64,000 nt of DNA from Camelus dromedarius (Eukaryota), in the NCBI RefSeq assembly GCF_036321535.1, contig NC_087436.1:17918001-17982000 (forward strand), read 5' to 3'. Below, one piece after another: positions 1,901-60,998 of the stretch. Below the pieces are notes generated by a model. The model was not told the origin of the DNA, ran no database searches, and was given only the letters and a program-made list of their open reading frames with translations. Every line of letters starts with the position of its first letter. The stretch's first letter is position 1. The position numbers were made by a program, and so were the translations under genes.

Positions 1901-4900
1901 ATTTTAACATTTTTTAAATGTTTCAGTTCAAGTCAGCGAATTTTTGTTGGGTAACTAAGGAGCTGTACTCGGGGGGATGTGTGTATATTCCTGGATAATA
2001 AAAATGGAAGGCATGTTGTGGAAAAATTAGTTGTAAAGCAGGTGAATGAGAGTACAGTCATGGAGATGGGATGGTAGATTTTAACTGGTAAGATTGTGCA
2101 GGACTGCATAAGAAGGTGGATTTGGGCTGGATTTTACCAAGGGGAGAAGAAAGAGGGGCTTCCAGGCAGGAGGGAGAGCCGTCAGTGCTGGCCAGCTTAG
2201 TGTGTTGCTGAGTCTTGGTTTCTCTTGGAAGGAAGGACAGACAAATAGAAGTTGCTTCAGGAGGAAATCAAGTACAGCATTGCTGTATGTAGGAAGAAAT
2301 TATGTTCAATCCCCTTAGTAACTGGAGACTTACATAAAGTGCTGGTTTATTCTAATGTCTTTTATGTATATAAATCAGATATAATCAAATATGGCTGAAA
2401 AAATATATAAAATCAGATATTGTCAGATATTGCTGAAAAATCTTTTAATTACAGTGATATATAAATTCTTCTAGTAGTAGGAAAGTCTTGTACTCCTAAC
2501 TTTTGAACCAATTAAGATGAAAAAGTCCTTTAAAAGGATTAAACTATCTGAAGCATACTCAGAAATCAGTGGAAGGATTGGCATATTTAATCTTGGTTAT
2601 TATTACTTCAAATCGTGCTATAACTTTGGAGTTGATCCAGTGAATATCTGAGTTTAAGTGTTACTGACTTTGAAGAATAAAGTCAGTGTTTCCTTCCATA
2701 TACCTTCCCTTTGGTAGCAAGCCATTTAAAACAATATTACGTATATAATATAAACTGTGTAAAATACAAAAATTATATAATGAACATATATATTATAAAA
2801 TATATTATTTAAGCTGTTGTGAGTTATATTGCTTATAGATACGTTGTGTTTCTAATTTCCAATAGGAAATATTTTTCTCAAGACTTGAGTCAAATATTTT
2901 CTTAGGTGTTAAGAGATTTCTTTTAGTATTTCTTTTAGTGTTTGGCTGCATCTGCTCAGCTTTGGGGAGTGCCGAGATTACCAGTCACATCATCTTTAAG
3001 GATGTGAATAGGACTACTGAGAAGAAGTAGTCAAGGCCAGGGTTTTTGTTTGAAGAATGTATTAACTAGACATTTAAGTGAAGGGCATATAGCATATTTT
3101 AAAAACAGGAGATCATGGTATAGTATCTAGAATTCTATTTCTGCTGTGTCGTTAGTTCACCAGGAGATTTTCAGAAAGTGAGACATCTTTCTGCTTTGGT
3201 TTATTTATCCATAGAACACATTTTAAGGTGGAATGTGCTATTTAATACAATGTTTTTACAGAGAACAGATCTTAATTTCAGTACCTTATGGTTGGAAAGA
3301 CCAGTCTTCATTTGCTAAAACATCACGCAGGTGTATTTTGCTTCCAGTTTTAGATATATTCTATTAAAGTTGCCACTATGAATTTTTGGAACATGAGCAG
3401 TATTCAGCCCTCCTTGTTATTTCTTCTCTGACTGGGGCACTGATAGTACTTGATACAGATAGTAATGGATGTTTGCAGAATGAATAAATGAAATATCAAG
3501 GGCATAAAAATAATCATTTTCATGGAAAAAGTTGAATCGTTGACTTTCTCCACCTTGTTCTTTTAATGTTCTTTTTGGATGCTGTGACTCACAAGCTTAT
3601 GAAGCAATGACCTTACGTAATGTATCTAATCTTCGGTTTATCCATTTGTATCATATCTATCACAGCACCTGTCTCTCAGGTTAGTGAGGATTACATTAGA
3701 GAATGTTTTCATTTGAGCGAAATTTTCAGAAAAATGTTCAGTATAAATTTGTTTGGCATCCCTCCAAAGTTCTTGGTGCTTTTGAATGTTTTTTCCTCCG
3801 ATTTTTTTCTCTCTGGTGTATTAAAGACTGCATTTAAAGGGACTGTTTATGCACAAGACTATTGGTATAAAAATTTCACTTTCTATAAGACAAGATATAC
3901 CTGTTTAATTCTGTGATGTGACAGTGTCTTTGGGGAGCCTCTTTTGTCTCTGTATATTTATACAACTGTAGAATTATAAAGTCCTCAAGGCAGTGGGCCT
4001 TTGGGGATTTATCTCGTTCCCTCTGCAGATAGGTCCAGATAAATTTTTACCAGCTGTCCTTTCTCCCACATGATTATAAGAATTAAACGTAATGACGGGA
4101 ACTTAACAATCATATCTTATTCTCTAAATAATGCTTATTAGTAAGGTTGATTTTTTTAAATTTTAAAGTAAACCAGACTGTGAGTGTGTGTTTTTCCCCA
4201 GATATCTGAATTTCAGCACCCCCTCCCCTTCATCCATTTCTATTTCTTACAAATTGCATGGTGAGGGAAACTCTGATCTAAATCTCTTGATTATGACAGC
4301 ATTCCATGTAATTTTACCCAGAGTAATACACAGCTATTTCTTTCACATGTAGGCTTACTGACACACACATACATAGGGGGTAAAAGTTACATAAGAAGTT
4401 TCATTATATGAGTCTTCTAACTATTTAGTCAGTTTCAAGATGACCATCACAAGACATTTGAGCAAAATACATTGAATAGCAACCTTCTCATGGCTCAGTA
4501 AAGTTTTCTGTTGTTTTTATTTGTTTGTTTTTAGCTGTCGAGTTATTTTAATTGCTTTGCAGTATAATTGCTCCAAATTTCGATCCATCAGAAAATAAGT
4601 GTTGAGAAGACAGAAAAGCTGTCTTCTGAACTCTTGTGTTGGCATCTGTGTCTTTGGTAGCTTGACCAGGTGTGTCATGAGGTCCGTGGGGCCCATGGTC
4701 CAGGTTTCCTTTCAGTCAGGAGCAGGAACTCTGTGTTGTTCCTCTTGCTGACTGCCCAGCTGAGTCTGGCCAGTTGTCTTGCACCTGTCTCTGGCCGTCC
4801 ATCCCCGCGGGACAGATCTTTGCATCCATCACCGCTGCTAGCTAAACTTCAAAGCTCATGTCTCCCTGTGGACGGGCTGGCCGCACCATCTTGGTCTAGG

Positions 4901-13985: not shown

Positions 13986-14529
13986 TTAGCCAAGACATGG
14001 AAACAACATAAATGTCCATCGACAGATGACTGGATAAAGAAGCTATGTTATGTTTATAATGGAATACTACTGAGACATTAAAAAAGAATGAAATAACGCC
14101 ATTTGCAACAACATGGTTGGACCTGGAGATCATCATTCTAAGTGAAGTAAGCCAGAAAGAGAAAGAAAAATACCCGAGAACACTTATATGTGGAATCTTT
14201 AAAAAGAGAGAGAGAGAGACACACACAAATGAACTTATTTACAAAACAGAAACAGACTTACAAACATAGAAAACAAACTTATAGGTACCAGGGGAAAGGG
14301 AATGGGAAGGGATAAATTGAGAGTTTGAGATTTGCAGATACTAATATATAAAAAACAAACAACAAGGTAATACTGTATAGCACAGGGAACTATATTCAGT
14401 ATCTTGTAGTAACCTATGGTGAAAAAGAGTATGAAAATGAATACATGTGTATGTTCCTGTGTGACTGAAGCACTGTGCTGTACACCAGAAATTGACACAA
14501 CATTGTAAACTGACTATCCTTCAGTAAAT

Positions 14530-17924: not shown

Positions 17925-18135
17925 GAAACGCCAGCCTCTTGCTGGGTTCTGTGCTAAGAACTTCATGCCCGTGAGTCATTTAACACCCCCCCCCCCACCA
18001 TTGTGGTGGGTATTGGCCCTGTCCCCATTTTAAAAAGAAGGAAATACAGGCTCAGAAGGGTTAACTAATTGGGTCAGGGTCAGGGTCAGGGTCAGGGTCA
18101 GGTAGCAGGTCCAGGATTTGATCTCCAAAGCTGAA
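17925..18135 (-). mobile_element. MIR SINE containing a (GGGTCA)5 expansion
   Basis: 'ccccattttaaaaagaaggaaatacaggctcagaagggttaactaatt' is the reverse MIR core; the array is at 18071-18100. Confidence 0.7.
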
Positions 18136-20167: not shown

Positions 20168-21344
20168 AAATATGCTATGTGGTTTAATTATATCTTTGGA
20201 GCATTTTGAGACTGATTCTGCTTGTTTGGGCAGGAAAGATCTTTCTGGTTTTGTAAAAACTGATCCATTGCCCTACAGTGAGTACTTTGCTTTTTTGCAA
20301 ACTGTAATCTAAACAAACTGTTTTTAAGGAGTTTCTTTAAGTCTCAGAATCCACTTTGTCATCTCTGGTGTTCTCATTAATGTTTATTCATTCATCGTTT
20401 GACTTTATATTTTACATTATTTCAGAAAATGTGTTAAATAACTTGTTAGCTGCTCTCTGTTTTTAAATGTTTTTATAAGCATCTTTATTTTCAGGGGTTT
20501 GCTTTGCGTTTAGCATTCACATTATCTTTATATCCATACTTGTTTGGTGTTTCCAAAACACTGAGTAAGAGAGGATTTTTAAAATAGGAAGAGTAGTCTT
20601 TAGTTTGCTCTCTGCTGGGTTCATTGTGGAGGAAGCTTGTCGCAGATGGATTTTAGGAATAAGATCACTAAAGATCAGTGGCCATGATTTCCCATCCTTC
20701 CCTGATGGCCTGCAGATGCCGGGAGGGGACAGTCTGCCATGTGACTTTGGGACAGGCCTTTTAATTCCATCTGAGCAGTGGCCGATGTGAGTCACCGTGT
20801 TGTGGCACCTCCGGCTGAATAGAACCTCAAAGATGCCAAGCAGCATTTTGGCCGGATGAATAAGGATGTGCATTGTCATAGTTCTATGTGGGTTAAGATT
20901 TATTATTTTAATTAACACAGAAAAGAGAAAACAAATACTCTTGTGTGACCTCAAAAAAAAGTATAAAGCAACGCCCTCTAAGTGTTACCCTACAAACCAC
21001 CTTTTCTCAAGATGACTTCCAAAAACTGAGAGAGAAACCCAGAAAAATATTTTCCAATATTTTATTGCTGGAAAATGGGTAGGACTCTGTTGTCCCAGGA
21101 CCAGTGTTGCAAAATCGATTCTCAGGGTTTAAGGAACAGATCTGATCTCTCTCTCTCAGCCCTCCTCCCTCCAGCAACTCAGAAAGAATAAATTACTTAA
21201 ATTTCCATTGGTTATTTAATAAGAATAAGAATTCCAGAATTCCTTTCTTTTTCAGCCATGGATTATGCACCCTCGTGGCCACCCCGAGTTTAGGATACTA
21301 AAGAAACATACTTTATGGTGCTCCATCAGCCAAGGCTTTAAAAT

Positions 21345-23185: not shown

Positions 23186-23437
23186 GTAAATGTTTCTCGG
23201 TTTTATTTATAGTAAGGTACTTGTCTCTCAGGAAAGAAAACTATATTGTAATTTGGGGCCAGTTGGTTTGTTTTGCCACTTGTATAATAGGGCCCTTGTT
23301 TGCATATTTCCTCAATTTTATGTTTATATATCTTTTCTTCTTCCTCCAAATGTTTTCCCTCAGCCTCATAACGTTGCCTTGGGAGCAGTATGCTGCAGTG
23401 TTATTTGATACCAACAATACACACCACAAGCCTTTCT

Positions 23438-23532
23438 TTCACATGTAAGCCCAAACTTTAGTTTTTCCCATTCAAAGGAAACTCTGACCCTTCTTGTACA
23501 GGGCAGAGTAGATGTCACTGTACTTTTCTGGG
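23438..23532 (+). repeat. Left arm of 95-bp inverted repeat
   Basis: Reverse complement of 24669-24763 with one mismatch, compared base by base. Confidence 0.97.
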
Positions 23533-24668
23533 GACTCAAAGAAACTTAGCAAATAATGAAAAATTGTCTAATGGGAAATGGAAGTCATGAAATTAACTAG
23601 GATATTGCATGTCGTACATTTAACATCGACGACGGAAAATCAAAAGTGTTGTAAACACTAAGGAAAGTGGTCATTATGAACTGTTTATCCAGGCAACCAA
23701 CGGAGCCTTCATCCAAGGGAGCTAATTCTCATTATAAAGGTTTGCTCAGCCTTCAGACCAGGAAGCAGTTGTGATCCCTCTTTTTGTCGGGACCCTTATG
23801 GGACGACCGTAAAGAAGATGATAGACATTTGTGACATGTTTCCTTCTCTGAGTTTAATTTCTGTTCTTTTCAACTTGTTCTCTAGCTGACCTTGACAACC
23901 GTTCCAACTGGCAAAACCATGAGCTCTCCCTGGACAGTTGCTGTATCTCAGACTCAAGTTATAGTACAAGAGAGACATAGTGAAAAAACTGTAGAGATAG
24001 CCAAACAAAGTAATCAGTAAAAAGGGAAGACCCTTGTGAGAAAGACCACTTTTTTTTTTTTAATACTGGAAATATGAGGGCTTACTTTGTATAGTATGTA
24101 ATGGAATTTTCTACACTGAAAGGTGACACATCCTGAATTTATTGTTTTATCCAAGTCAGATTCCAGGTTAGTAAGGGAGCATCCCCTTCAGGCTTTTCAA
24201 AATTATTGCCATTTTGATGTAATTAAACGGGTAAATTAACTCAGTACACATTCAGTTATTCTGTTTTCTTTCTGGTTGTTTTCCTGGCATTTGGTGCTCT
24301 TGCTTTGAATGCAGCAAAAATCAGGAAACAAGTTGATCTTAAGGCGTGATGAGGGTTGAAAAGTCAGGAAGAAGGGAAAAAAGTCATTCTAGTAGTTAAA
24401 ATAGATACACCAAAATCTCTGCACTAAAATCCATGCTCTTTTGATAAGATCAAGATAACAAACACCTATCAGGTTTCTTGGATTATCATATATCGGAAGC
24501 AGCAAATTAGGGGATGAGAACAAACGTGTTGAAAGTGGTGGAACAAGACATTAAAACCCATGTAGGCACTTAGCACAGCAATTAAGGAGCGATCTGTTAC
24601 CCAGGCAAACGACCCTACAGACCTCATTAGCTCCCCAGTGGCATCCCTGTGCAGTCCATATTTGTGAG

Positions 24669-24763
24669 CCCAGAAAAGTACAGTGACATCTACTCTGCCC
24701 TGTACAAGAAGGGTCAGAGTTTCCTTTGAATGGGAAAAACTCAAGTTTGGGCTTACATGTGAA
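24669..24763 (-). repeat. Right arm of 95-bp inverted repeat
   Basis: Reverse complement of 23438-23532 with one mismatch. Confidence 0.97.
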
Positions 24764-24869
24764 TAAATTTTCTGAATCTGGGAAGTTTACTTTCGTTCAC
24801 TTAACTAATATTTTCAATATGTTCCAGGTATCTCTCTCTAGGTGCTGAAGATATAAATCCTTGATTTAG

Positions 24870-24990
24870 GTACAATCCTGTTACACTTTAGATCGTAAGC
24901 TCAGTAAAGGCAGGGACTTCATTTTGTTCACTGCTGTGTCCCCACTGGAACACACAGTAGGCGCTCAAGAAACAATTGTGGAATAAATAC
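24870..24990. mobile_element. L2 3' terminus
   Basis: 'tagatcgtaagctcagtaaaggcagggacttcattttgttcactgctgtgtcccc...cacagtaggcgctcaagaaacaattgtggaataaat'. Confidence 0.8.
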
Positions 24991-25765
24991 TTTGAGAAAG
25001 TTAATAGGGAAAAAAGGTGCAAATGTTGATTTTACTCACAGTGGGTGCATTTAGTGAGGCCAGCATATCTTGGAAGAACAGTGGTTTTATTGAGAAGGGA
25101 ATGAAGAATCATGGGGAAATTAAGAATAGATGTGTATCATTTTAGAACTGAAAGAATTTTATGGATGATCTGAGTCAGCGGTTTTAGAGTGGTGAGCAGG
25201 CTCGACCCAGGAGAGGCTGTGTCGGGATAAAGGGGTGAGAGGAGGTGTAGCTTGGAAGCAGTGGAGATGTTTTTTTCTATTTTTAAATTTGTTTTCAGTC
25301 GTGATATCTATTTGGAATTCCAAATAGTATTAAGTAGGCATTTAGGGAATGGGATGAGAAGCATGGACTCATAAAAGGTGAAAAACTTTAAAGTCTAAAA
25401 TAATATGCCAATTGGAAGGCAATGTAAGAAGAATCTGGAAATTAGTAGTCAAGTCAACATAAAATGCAGGAAAAATAATTACAGTGATTAATTGATAAAT
25501 GGCCATTTTAGAAACCTTTTATTCTTCTAGCTTAAGTGTGCTTTTCAGTCCGTTTTCTTACTTGACTGCCTGGCAGATTCTGACCCTGTCATCCACTCAC
25601 CACCTGTGCATTTCTTGTCTCCTGGGACACCACGTTAGCCAGCTTTTCTAGCTGAATCCTCATCACACCCATCCCACGTGTGTTGAGACCTGCAGCTTCA
25701 TCAGAGACCAAACTCTCACTCATGCCCTTCTTTACTTTCTCAAACTTGTTACTTATTGTCTGTAT

Positions 25766-28745: not shown

Positions 28746-29503
28746 CTCTGTGTTGTTTAGATTGCTTGAGTTATCAGCTTTGCCGTGGCTTATAATACCA
28801 AAGTTGCACTATATTATATGTAATTGTGATATTTTAACTGAACTTAATTTAAGGAACGTGTTTGAGTATTTTCAGCAAGTTTGAAAACTCTAGTTATTAA
28901 TATTTCTGAAGATCTCAACCTGCACATAGCCACTTCTGTTACTTTAAGAGAGAAGTTGGATGGAAGTTTCTTTTCCTGGTTGGAGTAAAGTCAATCCTAG
29001 GAAAAAGAATAAAGGCTTTGGAACTATTCTTTGTGAAGTTTTAAATAAAATGTGGGTCTATTGTCCTTTCCCAAGATAAAGCTTATGCCTTAGTTGGCAT
29101 TCACCAACCAATTTAAAGCTATATCAGGAATTGTCAACAACTTTAGTCCTGCTTATCATTCCTGAGGCTCAGCAAACAAGAATGCCACCAGCCTTGGAAT
29201 TTTTATAGCTGAACCAGATGCCACTCTGCAGCCTGGCTTTTTATGGAGAAATCGTAATTTAACCCACAAATTCAAAAACTTCAAAATGTCCTGAGCTCAG
29301 AAGGAGAAGACTAGTACTTAATTGTTACATTTGCTTTTGTTTTTACTGGTTTTTTTTTTTTGGAGTATGTGTTTGTGTGTGCATGGGTTTATATCCCTCA
29401 GTGACTTTCGCTCTCTAATCTGACTTTAACTTTTCTCATAGATGTCTTTAAAGTGCTACTTTGGGGGAGTTTTCTCCTTTATAGGAAGTTTTAGTCCTAG
29501 CTT

Positions 29504-29978
29504 TGTTACTGGAGGCAAGTTCACATGCCCGCCACACCATGAGGCCAAACAAACTGAAACATCAGAGTTTGAGCAGAGAAAGGTTAATTACAAGGCTGAG
29601 CAAGAAGGATGGGGTGGCCCATGCCCAAGAAAACCCCGAACTCCCAGAAGGGTTTCAGCAAAGCTTATTTAAAGGCTAGGTGAGGGAGGCAGGTCGCAGG
29701 TATGTGATCAGCTCGTGCACAATCCTCTGATTGGTTGATGTGGAGGGAACAGGGTGGTCAACACTATCAACCCCTGGGCGCCAGAAGGTCTGGGGGCCAC
29801 GTGCTCTCGATCACCAAATAGTTAATTTCTTCCTTTTGGTGATGGTTTTTAGCATCTTAAAAACTCAGGAAATATACATGAGATACTATTATCTGGGTGC
29901 TTCAGAGAGGAGCTGCAGCAGAGGGTGTGGGGGAGGGGTCTGTCCCTGGAAGTCTCCACAGGGTCCTGCTCGGTTACA
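29504..29978 (-). mobile_element. Solo LTR, ERV1 class
   Basis: TG...CA termini (tgttact...ggttaca); 4-bp flanks gctt/gttt (TSD with one mismatch); on - a CCAAT box (caaccaatcag), then TATA-like tttaaataa, then a degraded polyA signal. Confidence 0.85.
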
Positions 29979-31297
29979 GTTTCTAAATGCTTGGGTTGAC
30001 ATCGTCTCCAAGCACAGTGAGCAGTCCCGGCTTCATACAGTCCAACTCCACCCCAAACCTTGAGAATTAAAAAGAACAAATCTGGTAAAGTCCTGGTGAC
30101 CAAAAAGCATTGCCTGACGGGGTAGGGATCGGTGGGGAGAAGGCAGCCAGGACTCCCTCCTCCGTCCCCTGGACGCCCTCCTACCGCCTTGGCACTTGAA
30201 TCAGAGAGATGCACAGAGCATGAGTTTGGTCCAAGGTAAAGGGTTTAAACTCCTTTGTTACTTAGCAGTTGTCATTCAGTGACACAGAAACTGATGGAGG
30301 TGAAAGAATTGACCTGGAGATATAATAAAAAGGACTGAGGGAGTGGAAGAAAGGTGTGGGGATAAGCACTTAGCATGACAGAAAAGAGCAGAGTGCTGTT
30401 AGTTGGGCCTCAGGTCCTGCAGGTTTCGGGGTGGTGGATGGATGTCTGCTGTACGATTTCCAGACTTTGGGCTGCTTAGTATTCGTTCCTAAGTTTGATT
30501 AGGGAACGAGCCATGATATTTGATTTAATAATTACCACGGAGTCAGAGGAACTCCATTTCAGTATCAGACTACCATATTAATCTCCAAAATGGGCTCTAT
30601 TTTTCATTCCAGGAATGAGCTAAAAATCTGCCCTTGTCTTTAGTAAACTAAAGAAAGATTACTTTGTACCTGAAGCAGTTGCATTAGTGATGGATTCATT
30701 CCAAGCACTTTGAAGTTTCTCGGAGCCTTTAAAAGATGTCAGTTAACCTTATAGCAGAAGTAATTTACAGTAAAAATAACAAAATGACCGAAACAGTTTG
30801 TGGAAATCTTACTGTCATTTGCTGTTAAATGGTGAGATTTAGATAAGATGAGGTTTTTCACAGTTCTTTAATGCTACAGCATGATAATTGTATGTGTTAA
30901 TAATAAAGGTATATAGCGGGGGATTAGAAGTTTTAGTCACTGCTAATCACAGTTTAAAAAAATCCCACAGCAGGTTCAGATATGTGGGGAAGGATTATAG
31001 TGAAAGCATAGCTTAGCTCATAAGGGGCTTATTATAGATCAACAACCAGCGCCTCGTCAAGTATGAAACACAGGTGTATTTTTGGAGTTGTTTTACTTTG
31101 TGGCACGTGATACCTATCACAGTACACATATGGAGCACCTAGTGGAGAATTTTCTAATGTGCTTTTAATTGTTCAGTCTCTCACTGGTTGGTGCTCTTAC
31201 GTAGCCATGACGTTAAAGAAATGATACAATATTTCCTTATGAGCCTTTCCCTCTACCCACTTTCTCAGCTGTGATTTCTCTGGTTCATTGAAACTTT

Positions 31298-32080: not shown

Positions 32081-33111
32081 AAAATTCCCCTTTGCTAACT
32101 TGCACTGCAGGCTTCTTTATTGCTCTTGATGGCTCCTTGCATGTGTCACAAAGCTTGACTCTTTGGGAAGAGCTTTATTTGGTATTCACTGTAACCTTTG
32201 CTTCATATGGTTCTAAAAGCCAAATTTGGAGTTACTCGTAGTGATACAGCACACGCAGGCTTTCCTCACCTTATTCAGTTTATTTGAAATCTAAATCTTT
32301 GGCGTAAAAAAAAAGTGCAAAATTTTTAAGTGAAACAGAATACCATATGATATTGAGTAGTGAAGACTTAGAAATAATTAATTTTAAAAGCCACTTAGAA
32401 ATGTTTTACTTACTCAGCATTTTCAGTAGCTCTTCTTTTCTCCAGCCTTGGAAACTGTGCGTCTTAGAGAAAGAAAGAACCAAAACCTAGTAAGAGCAAG
32501 AGGGGCAGCATCAGTTCTTAAATGCTAACTCACTGGAAGTTCAGCAAGACGAAGCCAGGCCTGCCTGATCGCTGCAGCTCTTGGGCGCACTGGGCTGAAG
32601 GTTAATTGCTGCTGCTGACTTCCTCGACCCTGTTAGCTGAGAGGGGAAGGGTGGCACCTCCTCTTTCTTTCATCAGAATGAGCCATCCGCAGTGGCAGAG
32701 TTGACAGTAAAATCTAGTCCATCTACAGGGAAGCTTTGATCATACCTACTGGGAAGGCCTGACTGGAGTGACTGCTTATTGGAGCAAACTTGTTTGTGAT
32801 CAACTCATTAATAGCTAAAATCCTTAAACACCAGAGAGGTTTTTGTTTGTTTGTTTGTTTGTTTTTTAAGTAACTTGTTGTCTGTAGTCACACAATTCTG
32901 ATTTAAAACAAAGCTCAACCCCTTATTTCTACCATTAGGAACTATTATATGTTCAAATCTGATTTTCTGGAAAGCTTGAGTGTTTAACCCCTCAGGGAAA
33001 AAGCACAGGCCGGTTTTGGAGCTTTGAAGCCCTTCAGAGACGTAGTCTAACCTATGATGAAACATCAACTCTTAAAATAATTCTTCTCAAGTAAATTTTT
33101 TGGCTTTTAAA

Positions 33112-35689: not shown

Positions 35690-35759
35690 TGTGCGGCTTA
35701 AAATCCAATAAACCAAGCCCTAAACTGTAACTTGTATGTCCACAGGAGATATCGCAAAG
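35690..35759 (+). other. Candidate 70-nt exon (UTR-like, ends in ATG-STGDIAK)
   Basis: cttaatgtttctactttacag| ... AAG|gtagca; stops in all three frames upstream of ATG 35736. Confidence 0.25.
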
Positions 35760-36544
35760 GTAGCAATCATCAAAATAATGAGCGGAATGCCAGGTGAACC
35801 AAAAATGAATATAATTAGGTTTGAAAAGAGAGGATATTCTAATCGCATGTGTTTACTTTGAATCTTTTTCCATTTTAAAAGTATTATAACCACATTCTAG
35901 AAAAAAGAGGAACTATTCCCTCTTCCCATGCCGCTGAAGAAGAGGAAACTAGCAGGTATTGGCATTTTGATACATTTCCTCACAGGCTTTTTTCCTATGT
36001 GCTTTCAAACAGCAACAATATATAGATAAAACATCAGACTTTCACATGTTTTTTTTTTTTAATTCTGCTTTGTTTCCCATAACATACTACAAACACTTCT
36101 TGACATAATTAAATGTTTTCATACCATATTAATGGTTAAGCAACACATGGGATTCTTAATCTAAAATCTAGAGAATGCGAGAGACTTAGTTTGTTTCTTC
36201 TAAGTTCCGTAGATTCTGATGGGTCAAAGAGAGGAACGTTCAGTTCTTCAGCTGTAGCTCTCCCCTCCCAGAGCCTGGCGGAGATCCTCCAGTGTGTGTG
36301 GGGTGGGGTGGGGTCTTACCTAGCACTGTAGAGGTCCCCCAGTTATGAGTCCTTACTCCCTCTCACCGCTAATATTCCCATTACGCAAACCACCATGCTC
36401 TTGATTCAACAGTTGATGGATCTACATCCTCAGTGGGCAGGGTGGTCCTGTCAGGTCTGCAGCCTCTGGTCTTGGAGCATAGACCCATTAGACTCCCGTC
36501 AGCCTGTGCTGGCTTGGATCGGTCTCTTCTCATTGTTGTTTGTT

Positions 36545-47459: not shown

Positions 47460-47789
47460 TTTGTTTTATTTTTTTAATTGAAGTACAGTCAGTTACAGTG
47501 TATCAATTTCTGGTGTACGACACAGTGTCCCAGTCATGCATATACATACATATATTCATTTTCATATTCTTTTTCATTAAAAGTTATTATAAGACATTGA
47601 ATATAGTTCCCTATGCTATACAGAAGAAACTTGTTTTTTTAATCTATTTTCATATATAGTGGCTAATATTTGCAAATCTCAAACTCCTGAATTTTATCCC
47701 TTCCTACTCCCTTTCCTCCGGTAACTATAAGATTGTTTACTATGTCTGCGAGTCTGTTTCTGTTTTGTAGATAAGTTTATAGTGTCCTT

Positions 47790-47826
<37 letters not shown>

Positions 47827-48455
47827 AGATTCCACATATGAGTGATATCATATGGTATTTTTCTTTCTCTTTCTGGCTTCACTTAAAATGACATTCTCTA
47901 GGTCCATCATGTTGCTGAAAATGGCACTTTATTCTTTTTATGGCTGAGTAATATTCCATTGTATAAATATACCACAACTTCTTTATCCAGTCATCTGTTG
48001 ATGAACATTGAGGTTGCTCCCATGTCTTGGCTATTATATATAGTGCTTCTATGAACATTGGGGTGCATCTATCTTTTCAAATTAGAATTCCCTCCAGATA
48101 GATGCCCAGGAGTGGGATTGCTGGATCATATGGTAAGTCTATTTTTAGTTTTTTGAGGAATCTCCATACTGTTTTCCATAATGGCTGCATCAAGCTGCAT
48201 TTCTACCAACAGTGTACAAGAGTTCCCTTTTCTCCACAGCCTCTCCAGCATTTATCATTCATGGACTTCTGAATGATGGCCATTCTGACTGGTGTGAGGT
48301 GATACCTCATTTTATTTTTGATTTGCATTTCTCTGATAATTAGCAATATTGAACATTTTTTCATGTGCCTATTGGCCATTTGTGTGTCTTCATTGGAGAA
48401 TTGCTTGTTTAGGCCTTCTGCCCATTTTTTTGATTGGGTTGTTTGTTTTTTGTAT
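47460..48455 (-). mobile_element. 5'-truncated L1, about 1 kb, longest colinear copy in the window
   Basis: Continuous reverse-complement 3'UTR and ORF2 C-terminus ('gccattctgactggtgtgaggtgatacctcat'). Confidence 0.95.
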
Positions 48456-50041
48456 TAAACTACTGTACTGAATGAGGGCTTTTAGTTACTTAAGGGTCAT
48501 TACTGTGTAAATTGTAAATACAGATGTAAAGTATAGTTTTATACCCATTAGGCCATTTGTGGGAAAACATAAATGAAATTATGTGCATAGTAAACTCTCA
48601 ACGCCTTTTCTATGACTAATACTGGATAAAGTTCTCAAATGGAAAAAGGTCTCATATATTTAAGCGTGGTTATATATCGGAAAGAATGATACTGTTTTTC
48701 ACAGAACTAAAAAAATGGCCACGTTCAATACTGTGCTGAGAATAGCGCGCCTGCGCCTAGGGCTGTGTTGATTTCATGGTGGTGCCTCATCTCCCTCTTG
48801 TCTCACTTGCTCTTTCATTTTCACCTCGAACTAGTTGATCATATTGTTTTTGAAGATCTTTCTCCCCATATGGTCCTTTCATTATTTCTTTTAACTGAAT
48901 CCACTCTCAGGTGCTTTCAGTAGAGTTTGGTTCCCAGGTCAGGTCTGGAACTGCATGGTACCACGCCCTTGCTCTTAGGACAAAATACACTCCCTTTAAA
49001 AAGTCGGGATAAATGAGACCCTCCCATCACCTGCTTTCCTCCTAGGAACGATGTGAGACACAAGTCATGTTACCCATTTCCATAAAACCTGCAGAGGGGT
49101 GTGCTAGCAAGAAGGGCTTGCCATAGGACTTCGGAATTTGAGTTTTTACCATGAAGCTTAGCAAGAAAATTGCTTCGCCTGAGAGCATGTTTACCATTTT
49201 GCAAGACAGGATACGTACAAAAAAGGGGAAAGCCAGGCTGCAGGAGGTGAAGGCAAAGCAAATAAAGTTTCAAAACTGTAATATGAAAAATGTTTGAAAA
49301 CTCGGCAAAGCGTAACAGAAAGAGCAGAGAATCCGGGGCCCAGACTGAGCCCCCTTTTCCCACCTTACTGTCCAGTCTTGGCCAAGCCATTGAAATTCCT
49401 TTTTCTTTCATTTTTAAAATGGAGGCAATAATCATCACCTCGCAAGTTTGTCCTCAGAATTAAAAGGACTTCAGCATTTAGCTAGATTTATAATCACAGT
49501 GTTTTATTAGTTTGCTTTAGTTTACAAAATGTAAATTGAACGATTTTGTAATCAATACAAAGTCTAATAGGAACCATACCCAAGTATATTATTGTTGTAC
49601 AATGTACAACAGGTAAATTTTCTCACAAATACGACACGTTGGATGGTTTAAACATATTTTTTTATGGATCAAATCTTGTCCTGAGTGAAATGGACTTGTT
49701 ACAAATTTGAAGTGCTTTAGAATTAAGTATATTAAAAGTGATCATGTTTTATAGGGGTTTTTTAATGGGTTGTAATAAATCTGCTTATTACTCACAAGAT
49801 AAACGTTATTGGACTGTAGTCCAAGGACTTTCTAAAGACTGAAATGTTTCCTTTCTCTGGTAAATTATCCATCAAATTTTATCTTATTTTGGAATGGCTT
49901 ATTCCTTGCAGTTGGTAATAAAAGAGAGTCCTGGGTCATTTAAACAAGTAATTAAGAGGACCATTTACTATTTTTTGCCTTTGAAGAGTGCTAATTTTAT
50001 TTGTTGTGGGTTAACAAGGCATTTATTCTGCATACTTACAG

Positions 50042-50058
50042 CTTCCAGTAGTTCAAAG
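50042..50058 (+). other. Candidate 17-nt microexon
   Basis: ttattctgcatacttacag|CTTCCAGTAGTTCAAAG|gtgagt; consensus donor; splice motifs only. Confidence 0.35.
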
Positions 50059-50895: not shown

Positions 50896-51043
50896 GGGAC
50901 AAACAAAGTAAATAAAACGTGGTATGTTTAAAGGTGATAAGTATTAGTGACAAGCAAAGCGAAAAAAAAAAAAAGGGATCCAGGCATTTCTGTGTCTGTG
51001 TGCACATGTGTGTCCGTGTCCTGCTTTAGAAACTGTGGTCAGT

Positions 51044-51138
51044 TGAGAGTGGGGTGTACAGCTCAGTGGTAGAGTCCACGCTTAGTATGCATGAAGTCCT
51101 GGATTCAACCTCCAGTACCTCCATTTAATAAAAAAGAA
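51044..51138 (+). mobile_element. tRNA-derived SINE (Vic-1-like, short form), copy 1 of tandem pair
   Basis: A box-like 'agctcagtgg', B box-like 'gattcaacc', 'cagtacctccatt' and A tail; flanked by TSD copies. Confidence 0.9.
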
Positions 51139-51154
51139 AGAAAGTGTGGTCAGT

Positions 51155-51249
51155 TGAGAGTGGGGTGTACAGCTCAGTGGCAGAGCGCACGCTTAGTATG
51201 CACGAAGTCCTTCGTTCAACCTCCAGTACCTCCATTTAATAAAAAAGAA
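51155..51249 (+). mobile_element. tRNA-derived SINE (Vic-1-like, short form), copy 2 of tandem pair
   Basis: 111-bp period relative to copy 1. Confidence 0.9.
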
Positions 51250-51265
51250 AGAAAGTGTGGTCAGT

Positions 51266-53869: not shown

Positions 53870-54360
53870 TTTTAAATTAAAGTACAGTCAATTACAATGT
53901 GTCAATTTCGGGTGTACAGCACCATGTCCCAGTCATGCATATACATACATATATTCATTTTCATATTTTTTTCCGTTAAAGGTTATTACAAGATATTGAA
54001 CATAGTTCCCTGTGCTATACAAAAGAAACTTTAAAATCTGTTTTTATAATAGTAGCTAACATTTGTAAATCTCAAACTTTCAAATTTATCACTTCCCACC
54101 CGCCTTTCCCCAGTAACCATAAGATTGTTTACTAAGTCTATGAGTCTGTTTCTGTTTTGTAGATAAGTTCATAGTGTCCTTTTTTTTTAGATTCCACATA
54201 TGAGTGATAGATTTTTACAATGGAATACTACTCTGCCATAAAAAAGAATAAAATAATGCCATTTTCAGCAACATGGATGGACCTAGAGATCGTCATTCTA
54301 AGTGAGTTAAGCCAGAAAAAGAAAGACAAATACTGTATGTTATCACTCATATGTGGAATC
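53870..54360 (-). mobile_element. 5'-inverted L1 3' end
   Basis: Antisense terminus to about 54209, then a forward segment at about 54215-54363; TSD taaagtt(t/a)gcttt on both sides. Confidence 0.92.
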
Positions 54361-56147: not shown

Positions 56148-56678
56148 TTTTTTTATGGAAGTATAGTCAGTTTATAATGTGTCAATTTCTGGTGTACAGC
56201 ATCATGTTTTAGTCATACAATTACATATATTTATTTCTTTTCATATTCTTTTTCATTATAGGCCACTACAAGATGCTGAATATAGTTCTCTGTACTAAAC
56301 AGTAGGACCTTGTTGTTTACCTGTTTTATACCTAGTAATTAGTATCTGCAAATCTTGAACACCCAATTTATCCTTCCACACCCCCTTTCCCCCCAGTAAC
56401 CATAAGTTCATTTTCTATGTCTGTGAGTCTGTTTTTATTTTGTAAATAAGTTCATTTGTGTCCTTTTTTTAGATTCCACATGTGAGGATATCATATGGTA
56501 TTTTTCTTTCTCTTTCTGGCTTACTTCACTTAGAATGACATTCTCCAGGTCCATCCATGTTGCTGCAAATGGCATTATTTTATTCTCTTTTATGGCTGAG
56601 TGGTGTTCCATTGTGTGTGTGTGTGTGTATGTATATATATATATATGCATTCATATACACACACACACATCATCTTTA
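56148..56678 (-). mobile_element. 5'-truncated L1 with internal (GT)n(AT)n
   Basis: Minus ORF reads TMEHHSAIKENKIMPFAATWMDLENVILSEVSQKEKEKYHM (ORF2p C-terminus), followed by 3'UTR. Confidence 0.92.
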
Positions 56679-60865: not shown

Positions 60866-60998
60866 GTGGGGGGAGGGGTATAGGTCAGTGGCAAAGCACA
60901 TGCTTAGCGTGCACGAGGTCCTGGGTTCAATCCCCAGTACCTCCATTAAAATACATGTAAATAGAAAAACCTAATTACCTCCTCTCCCCCAAAACAAA
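60866..60998 (+). mobile_element. tRNA-derived SINE (camelid Vic-1-like)
   Basis: 'ggggaggggtataggtcagtgg...gaggtcctgggttcaatccccagtacctccattaaaa...aacctaattacctcc'; perfect 12-bp TSD aaagatggcagg at 60854-60865 and 60999-61010. Confidence 0.92.

What the first reader, a model, noticed from the sequence alone, without database searches (positions are those of the whole stretch)
23438..24763. Near-perfect 95-bp inverted repeat flanking a 1,136-bp spacer: likely inversion scar and potential intronic dsRNA stem
Seen: 23438-23532 is the reverse complement of 24669-24763 at 94 of 95 bases. The arm occurs nowhere else that I noticed, resembles no repeat I recognise, and has no clear TSD outside it. 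Parts of the spacer look A-rich, unlike the T-rich surroundings (by eye). Known: staggered-break inversions and replication template switching (FoSTeS/MMBIR) leave inverted duplications at breakpoints, and long intronic inverted repeats form ADAR substrates and can alter splicing. Inference: a recent lineage-specific ~1.1-kb inversion with breakpoint duplication, possibly able to flip again by recombination between the arms. A young long-TIR non-autonomous DNA element is the less likely alternative, but would be striking in a non-bat mammal.
Basis: partly seen in the sequence, partly recalled or inferred. Interest (0 to 1): 0.72.

Follow-up and report, generated by a model that had tools for sequence, protein, structure and literature searches.

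The report
Young inverted copy in camelid intron
The inverted repeat is real, but it is not an inversion scar: a 79-base piece was copied backwards from 1.2 kb away into non-coding, probably intronic DNA of a probable camelid, a known kind of copying accident that here also made a splice-site look-alike which its own template can cover.

Summary
The arms are confirmed (94 of 95 bases). The inversion reading fails. A chance ORF from another mammal's matching locus (P0002) runs from the left flank straight into the start of the spacer on the same strand, exactly 79 bases shorter (19 of 23 residues match there; at most 6 of 23 under inversion). So the spacer was not flipped and most of the left arm is new: a 79-bp inverted copy of about 24683-24761, bounded by 11-14 bp and 2-5 bp of microhomology. 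This is the known 'inverted duplication' or templated-insertion class, probably a few million years old. The junction rests on one outgroup sequence seen only as protein; that the right arm is the original is inferred. The insertion creates a donor-like site that closes an 81-nt open pseudo-exon and lies inside a predicted 95-bp RNA stem. The host may be NR3C2 intron 2 (a positional lead only). No read-level data were obtained, so editing, splicing and polymorphism are untested. The scan noted similar intronic inverted duplications before on other DNA of this genome. Ordinary; low interest.

The parts
23221..23439 (+). Left flank, shared with the outgroup sequence
   Evidence: 58 of 73 residues identical to P0002 residues 1-73, no gap
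23438..23532 (+). Left arm: 79 new bases plus 16 bases of flanking microhomology
   Evidence: 94 of 95 complementary to 24669-24763; 79-base offset against P0002
23440..23518 (+). Inserted inverted copy, net 79 bp; the placement can slide to 23442-23520 or 23443-23521
   Evidence: Absent from P0002; three of four placements need one base change at the junction codon
23438..23442 (+). Outer microhomology, 2 to 5 bp depending on placement
23519..23532 (+). Inner microhomology, 11 to 14 bp, older than the insertion; the likely priming site
   Evidence: P0002 residues 75-78 match the translation of 23522-23533; a 12-base inverted match is expected 0.00015 times within 3 kb; the 14-bp DNA duplex is -15.9 kcal/mol
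23533..24668 (.). Spacer: old mammalian sequence, not inverted at its left end
   Evidence: Start collinear with the left flank in P0002 (15 of 18 residues beyond the shared block, against 1 of 18 for the reversed spacer end); 24146-24645 matched by two more chance ORFs, P0003 and P0006
24669..24763 (+). Right arm: inferred original and template (copied part about 24683-24761)
   Evidence: Inference from the absence of the left copy in P0002; no outgroup sequence across this arm was found
23364..23444 (+). Candidate pseudo-exon, 81 nt, open only if the host intron is phase 2
   Evidence: CAG acceptor with no other AG in 23310-23361; stop-free in 1 of 3 phases; no protein constraint (20 of 25 residues against 38 of 48 upstream)
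23445..23450 (+). Donor-like GTAAGC, brought in by the insertion and paired in the predicted stem
   Evidence: Rank 68 of 3,909 GT sites on a rough weight matrix; pairing probability 1.0 at all 9 donor positions

Best explanation
A single germline template-switch event made a short inverted duplication. Before it, the left flank ran straight into the spacer, and the 11-14 bases at that point happened to be the reverse complement of a stretch 1.15 kb to the right. A minus-strand 3' end at the junction (a stalled nascent strand or a resected break end) annealed there, most simply by folding back on its own strand. A polymerase copied 79 bases, let go, and rejoined the original template through 2-5 bases of microhomology. 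The result is a 95-bp inverted repeat around an unflipped spacer. It is probably neutral. If the region is transcribed, the arms can pair into a 95-bp stem that could be edited by ADAR and that hides the donor-like site the insertion created. Shown: the arms; the 79-base gap and same orientation against one outgroup; the microhomologies. Inferred: the right arm as template, the direction of synthesis, the enzyme (replisome, MMBIR or polymerase theta cannot be told apart), neutrality, and the age.
For: P0002 matches 23221-23442 and then 23522-23587 with no residue between. Its last 23 residues match the + strand at offset 79 with 19 identities; the best match under either inversion geometry is 5 or 6, and no other position in six frames of the window exceeds 10. 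The gap covers the arm except for 16 bases at its two ends. P0002 implies roughly 6-12% nucleotide divergence, while the arms differ by 1 base; at 9% the chance of 1 or fewer mismatches in 79 is 0.005, at 6% it is 0.046. No TSD and no poly(A). The spacer has matches in other genomes. The geometry fits the human 'Inverted Dup' class: under 1 kb, within 5 kb of the other copy, 54% of sequenced inversion calls (PMC4617611, passages).
Against: The junction evidence is one contig of an unnamed organism, seen only as a predicted protein. Four searches for an outgroup sequence across the right arm found none, and the start of P0003 did not align to the inner end of that arm better than chance (69% of 600 random places scored as well). 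The template lies about 1.16 kb away, far beyond the 100 bp that MMBSearch uses for MMB-TI calls (PMC8421209). No reads were laid and no genome is held.
Confidence: 0.85

Rival explanations
1. Staggered-break inversion of the 1.1-kb spacer with the arm duplicated at the breakpoints.
For: Near-identical inverted arms of otherwise unique sequence; mild A excess in the spacer.
Against: P0002 joins the left flank to the forward start of the spacer (19 of 23, against 5-6 of 23 for the inversion geometries). The skew is reached by 11% of windows. It would need an inversion followed by a flip back, or an assembly that shows a re-flipped allele.
Confidence: 0.03
2. An old inverted repeat kept alike by gene conversion or selection on an RNA stem, with the outgroup having lost 79 bases of the left arm.
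For: Only one outgroup sequence crosses the junction, so the polarity has no second witness. Template switching can also homogenise existing stems (PMC8794818, passages).
Against: The loss would have to start and end within a few bases of both ends of the arm, and the arms would have to stay 99% alike while the flanks diverged 6-12%.
Confidence: 0.05
3. Both arms are new: two insertions of the same 79-95 bp piece from elsewhere, or the right arm was also altered in a more complex event.
For: No outgroup sequence across the right arm was found; the P0003 test was negative.
Against: Needs two events or a foreign donor; the 11-14 bp old microhomology at the left junction is explained only if its complement already lay at the inner end of the right arm.
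Confidence: 0.05
4. Young non-autonomous DNA transposon with 95-bp terminal inverted repeats.
For: Long near-perfect terminal repeats around 1.1 kb without a long ORF.
Against: The interior is local DNA that other mammals have at the same site, joined to the left flank; no TSD; no further copy in 64 kb. Genome-wide copy number could not be tested.
Confidence: 0.01
5. Assembly artefact.
For: All 14 full holders are marked as a possible source; no reads were laid.
Against: 9 samples of 5 studies and 2 organism labels hold 0.99 of the words, against about 0.964 expected without the insertion; the arms differ by one base; the junctions carry microhomology.
Confidence: 0.01

Closest known systems
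'Inverted Dup' structural variants of the 1000 Genomes phase 3 set (PMC4617611; passages seen)
   Same: Duplicated stretch under 1 kb, inverted, within 5 kb of the other copy, looks like an inversion at first, no sign of retrotransposition.
   Different: Those are human polymorphisms verified with long reads; this one is in a probable camelid, may be fixed, and is inferred from one outgroup sequence.
Microhomology-mediated templated insertions, MMB-TI (PMC8421209; abstract, passages and part 1 of 2 of one results section seen)
   Same: Insertion near and inverted to its template, with microhomology at both junctions; occurs as germline variants (10 and 11 classical events of 25 bp or more in two people).
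   Different: The program there looks only within 100 bp; here the template is about 1.16 kb away.
Template switch mutations that make perfect RNA stems in one step (PMC8794818, passages; PMC5453318 and PMC7954356, search listing only)
   Same: One event makes a near-perfect reverse-complement repeat that can pair in RNA.
   Different: Those are short-range events around small loops; this loop is 1,136 nt and no RNA gene is involved.
Polymerase-theta / synthesis-dependent MMEJ snap-back insertions (PMC5728401, PMC2943611; search listing only; mechanism recalled)
   Same: Fold-back priming, limited synthesis, rejoining by short microhomology.
   Different: As I recall, such insertions are mostly shorter and copied from closer to the break; not checked in the papers.
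Intronic inverted-repeat duplexes such as inverted Alu pairs (recalled)
   Same: A long predicted duplex in pre-mRNA that ADAR could edit and that could affect splice-site access.
   Different: Unique sequence, shorter (95 bp), and no editing or splicing shown.

Membership tests
Inverted duplication (Inverted Dup) | Second copy in inverted orientation, under 1 kb long | tested here: met
   79-bp copy, 95-bp arms, 94 of 95 complementary
Inverted duplication (Inverted Dup) | Inserted within 5 kb of the other copy | tested here: met
   1,136 bp between the arms
Inverted duplication (Inverted Dup) | Pre-event allele lacks one copy and has the intervening DNA in the same orientation | tested here: met
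   P0002, one outgroup sequence, protein level, left junction only
Inverted duplication (Inverted Dup) | The other copy is the ancestral one at its place | tested here: inconclusive
   No outgroup sequence across the right arm
Inverted duplication (Inverted Dup) | No retrotransposition marks (TSD, poly(A)) | tested here: met
   No TSD at the insertion or the element; no poly(A) at either end
MMB-TI / template switch insertion | Microhomology at both junctions | tested here: met
   2-5 bp and 11-14 bp, 16 in all
MMB-TI / template switch insertion | Template within 100 bp (MMBSearch working definition) | tested here: not met
   Template about 1.16 kb away; it works like one but falls outside that definition
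MMB-TI / template switch insertion | Made by a given polymerase or pathway | not testable with these tools
   Sequence scars do not separate replisome switching, MMBIR and polymerase theta
Staggered-break inversion | Outgroup has the spacer in the opposite orientation | tested here: not met
   19 of 23 forward against 5-6 of 23 reversed
Non-autonomous TIR DNA transposon | Target-site duplication | tested here: not met
Non-autonomous TIR DNA transposon | Whole element absent at the matching outgroup site | tested here: not met
   Spacer present and joined to the left flank
Non-autonomous TIR DNA transposon | Dispersed copies genome-wide | not testable with these tools
   No genome held; none in the 64 kb
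ADAR-edited intronic duplex | Long stable duplex predicted | tested here: met
   91 of 95 pairs above 0.9 probability on the + strand, 89 of 95 on the - strand; -178 kcal/mol
ADAR-edited intronic duplex | Both arms in one transcript | tested here: inconclusive
   3 of 4 runs on record as RNA hold 0.54-0.84 of the words; contigs give no strand and may be DNA
ADAR-edited intronic duplex | Clustered A-to-G changes in RNA reads | not tested
   No read-level data were obtained
Cassette exon | Acceptor, donor and open frame | tested here: met
   Rough weight matrices only: acceptor rank 67 of 4,336, donor 68 of 3,909; 17 pairs as strong exist on the + strand, 1 of them 3n long and open in phase 2
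Cassette exon | Conserved coding constraint | tested here: not met
   20 of 25 against 38 of 48 identical residues, Fisher P = 1.0; the outgroup lacks the donor
Cassette exon | Junction reads | not tested
   No read-level data were obtained

The most novel reading that the evidence does not exclude
The insertion lies in intron 2 of the mineralocorticoid receptor gene NR3C2 and gave camelids a new, self-masking cassette exon. One 79-base copying event supplied the donor that closes an 81-nt exon behind an older acceptor, and also the antisense strand that hides that donor. NR3C2 intron 2 is phase 2 (donor at c.1757+1; PMC8602301), the only phase in which this exon is open, so inclusion would add 27 residues between the N-terminal and DNA-binding domains of a salt-balance receptor, tuned by co-transcriptional folding or ADAR editing of the stem.
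Probability: 0.04. Interest if true: 0.7.

Novelty: new member of a known kind. Interest (0 to 1): 0.2.

Why it matters
As it stands it is a tidy example of a known mutation class: short inverted duplications are often mistaken for inversions, and both microhomologies can still be read here. It could serve as a lineage marker in camelids. It would matter more only if the new donor is used: that would be an exon and its own repressor made in one mutation, possibly in a salt-balance gene. I found no paper on this locus in two searches of the held library, which lacks most subscription journals.

Tried and rejected
No whole genome is held, so copy number was not tested. No read-level data were obtained. 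Rfam found 2 tRNA-like matches elsewhere in the window and none at the repeat. I first took 23364-23444 for a real coding exon; rejected, since it has no Pfam match, no PDB match (best E 1.5), no Atlas hit and no extra conservation. Pfam on 86 minus-strand and 110 plus-strand exon candidates gave 1 weak match below its cut-off; these were 86 of 88 and 110 of 112 candidates, and short exons can be missed. Two searches for outgroup ORFs across the right arm found no candidate. The HMMER search gave 4 hits: P0003 and P0006 match only the spacer; P0004 and P0005 look unrelated (37% and 42% identity, internal repeats) and were dropped. Two scans of JGI metagenomes found no related locus among 347 and 110 pattern hits. 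The P0003 start did not support the inner end of the right arm. The spacer's base skew does not indicate a flip. An 18-base match to the arm's outer end at 4337-4354 (E 0.41) was taken as chance. Run X20 (share 0.07) and runs X21-X24 (0.00) are no evidence either way. The scan's notes held nothing near this place or like 24669-25200. No supplementary files of any paper were read; size and distance tables there could bear on how typical 79 bp at 1.2 kb is.

Full report
Observation. The arms are as described: 23438-23532 pairs with 24669-24763 at 94 of 95 bases, with one mismatch at 23459/24742 and a 1,136-bp spacer. It is the only minus-strand self-match of at least 93% identity and E below 1e-5 in the window; the other long inverted pairs are 75-92% alike and, by eye, pieces of L1-like repeats. 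There is no TSD. The spacer's A excess is mild: 11% of 629 equally long windows reach it. Fourteen DNA runs (9 samples, 5 studies, 2 organism labels) hold 0.99 of 190 sampled words; an allele without the insertion described below would hold about 0.964. That speaks against an assembly error and for a common or fixed allele, but all 14 runs are marked as a possible source, the word sample is the same for all, and heterozygotes would score the same.

The decisive evidence. No genome was held and no read-level data were obtained. A protein search with a stop-free frame ending in the left arm returned one hit among 4 candidates, P0002, a 96-residue ORF called on a single 1,565-bp contig of an unnamed organism. 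I read it as a chance ORF over the matching locus of another mammal. It matches window 23221-23442 (58 of 74 residues) and then, with no residue between, 23522-23587 (19 of 22) on the same strand. The offset is 79 bases. Its last 23 residues score 19 at that offset, 5 or 6 on the minus strand read inward from 24763 or 24668 (what an inversion predicts), and at most 10 at any other position in six frames. Beyond the block shared by both arms it matches the forward spacer start at 15 of 18 residues and the reversed spacer end at 1 of 18. So the left flank was joined to the start of the spacer in today's orientation, and 79 bases of the left arm are extra. A simulation puts P0002 at roughly 6-12% nucleotide divergence, with 5% and 15% each rejected at about 1%. 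Two more chance ORFs, P0003 and P0006, match 24146-24645 collinearly with frameshifts, so the spacer is old DNA and not the interior of a young element.

Anatomy of the event. The arm is 95 bases and the gap 79, leaving 16 bases that matched before the event. Three placements fit the outgroup codon with one base change: insertion 23440-23518 (microhomology 2 and 14 bp), 23442-23520 (4 and 12) or 23443-23521 (5 and 11). The inner block is always the longer. P0002 has the residues encoded by 23522-23533, so this block predates the insertion as far as protein can show; synonymous positions are not seen. A 12-base inverted match is expected 0.00015 times within 3 kb, so the block most likely chose the template. 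The 14-bp duplex is worth -15.9 kcal/mol as DNA.

Mechanism. Inferred: a minus-strand 3' end at the junction annealed to the complementary block 1.15 kb back on its own strand, a polymerase copied 79 bases, and the end returned to the original template through 2-5 bases. Replication template switching, MMBIR and polymerase-theta repair would all leave this scar. One mismatch in 79 bases (95% interval 0.03-6.9%) gives 2.5-4 million years, upper bound 14-23 million, at recalled rates of 1.5-2.5e-9 per site per year; gene conversion would make it look younger.

What is not shown. That the right arm is the original is inferred. Searches across it found nothing, and a codon-aware test of the P0003 start against its inner end was negative (69% of 600 random places scored as well). 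The polarity rests on one outgroup. The rival that the outgroup lost 79 bases needs the loss to coincide with both arm ends and the arms to stay 99% alike (P 0.005 at 9% divergence, 0.046 at 6%).

RNA level. Folding 23340-24800 gives the arm-arm stem on either strand (91 and 89 of 95 pairs above 0.9; -178 kcal/mol). This is a prediction, and co-transcriptional folding over 1.1 kb is not modelled. Three of 4 runs on record as RNA hold 0.54-0.84 of the words, and two runs guessed to be RNA hold 0.76-0.78; contigs show neither strand nor editing. The insertion brings a donor-like CAT|GTAAGC at 23444/23445, 81 nt behind an older CAG acceptor with no other AG in the 52 bases before it. The 81 nt are stop-free only in phase 2, and all 9 donor positions are paired in the stem.

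Host gene, a lead only. No exon candidate had a credible Pfam match (1 weak match among 196), and the + strand has T over A by 1,966 and G over C by 1,518, as expected of the sense strand of a long intron (recalled). The scan's unchecked notes place a gene beside LRAT 5.15 Mb before the window and ZNF827 2.03 Mb after it. With human coordinates from memory this interpolates to about 148.3 Mb on chromosome 4, inside NR3C2 intron 2 and on the right strand. Using the FREM3 note (3.17 Mb) instead gives about 147.9-148.0 Mb, in ARHGAP10 on the other strand. I put NR3C2 at about 60%. Its intron 2 donor is at c.1757+1 (PMC8602301, passages), which is phase 2 by arithmetic and matches the one open phase. 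That match has about a 1 in 3 chance by itself.

Comparison with what is known. In the 1000 Genomes set only 20% of sequenced inversion calls were simple and 54% were inverted duplications, nearly all under 1 kb and within 5 kb of the other copy (PMC4617611, passages). Germline templated insertions inverted to a nearby template, with microhomology at the junctions, are described in PMC8421209 (abstract, passages, part 1 of 2 of one section), though that program looks only within 100 bp. Template switches that make perfect stems in one step are described in PMC8794818 (passages). Interspersed inverted duplications are named as ordinary human variation in 10.1101/200170 (two passages). The scan's notes list a 528-bp young inverted duplication in PPP3CA and an old one over a cryptic donor in RAP1GDS1 in the same genome (unchecked). 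Two searches found no paper on this locus.

Verdict. A real, young inverted duplication made by microhomology-guided template switching (0.85); not an inversion (0.03) and not a transposon (0.01). New member of a known kind, interest 0.2. The self-masking exon reading stays open at about 0.04.

Noticed in passing
window 51030-51262: A stretch of about 110 bp holding a tRNA-derived SINE-like head (Rfam tRNA match at 51052-51123) is repeated head to tail with a few differences: a small direct tandem duplication (by eye).
   Followed up: no
window 60874-60990: Second tRNA-like match followed by an A-rich tail; looks like a SINE copy.
   Followed up: no
window 54217-54344 and 56487-56614; 14079-14174 and 56497-56592: Oppositely oriented L1-like pieces, 88-92% complementary; the first pair is 2.1 kb apart and could also form an RNA duplex.
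   Followed up: no
window 47470-48450: An L1-like fragment of about 1 kb on the minus strand, the longest in the window by eye. Several other L1-like pieces appear to have an inverted 5' part (around 41470, 54210).
   Followed up: no
window 29500-29985: About 490 bp that looks like a solo LTR by eye (begins TGTTAC, ends TTACA); not tested.
   Followed up: no
window 20494-20564, 32446-32489, 35746-35793, 49987-50058: Exon-like stretches on the + strand with AG and GT ends and open frames; three of the four were scanned, without a Pfam match. Probably chance.
   Followed up: partly
window 18070-18104: Short tandem run of GGGTCA units, which resembles nuclear-receptor half-sites (recalled).
   Followed up: no
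window 1-64000: No domain-coding exon found on either strand, with T over A and G over C on the + strand; fits a very long intron, perhaps NR3C2 intron 2.
   Followed up: partly
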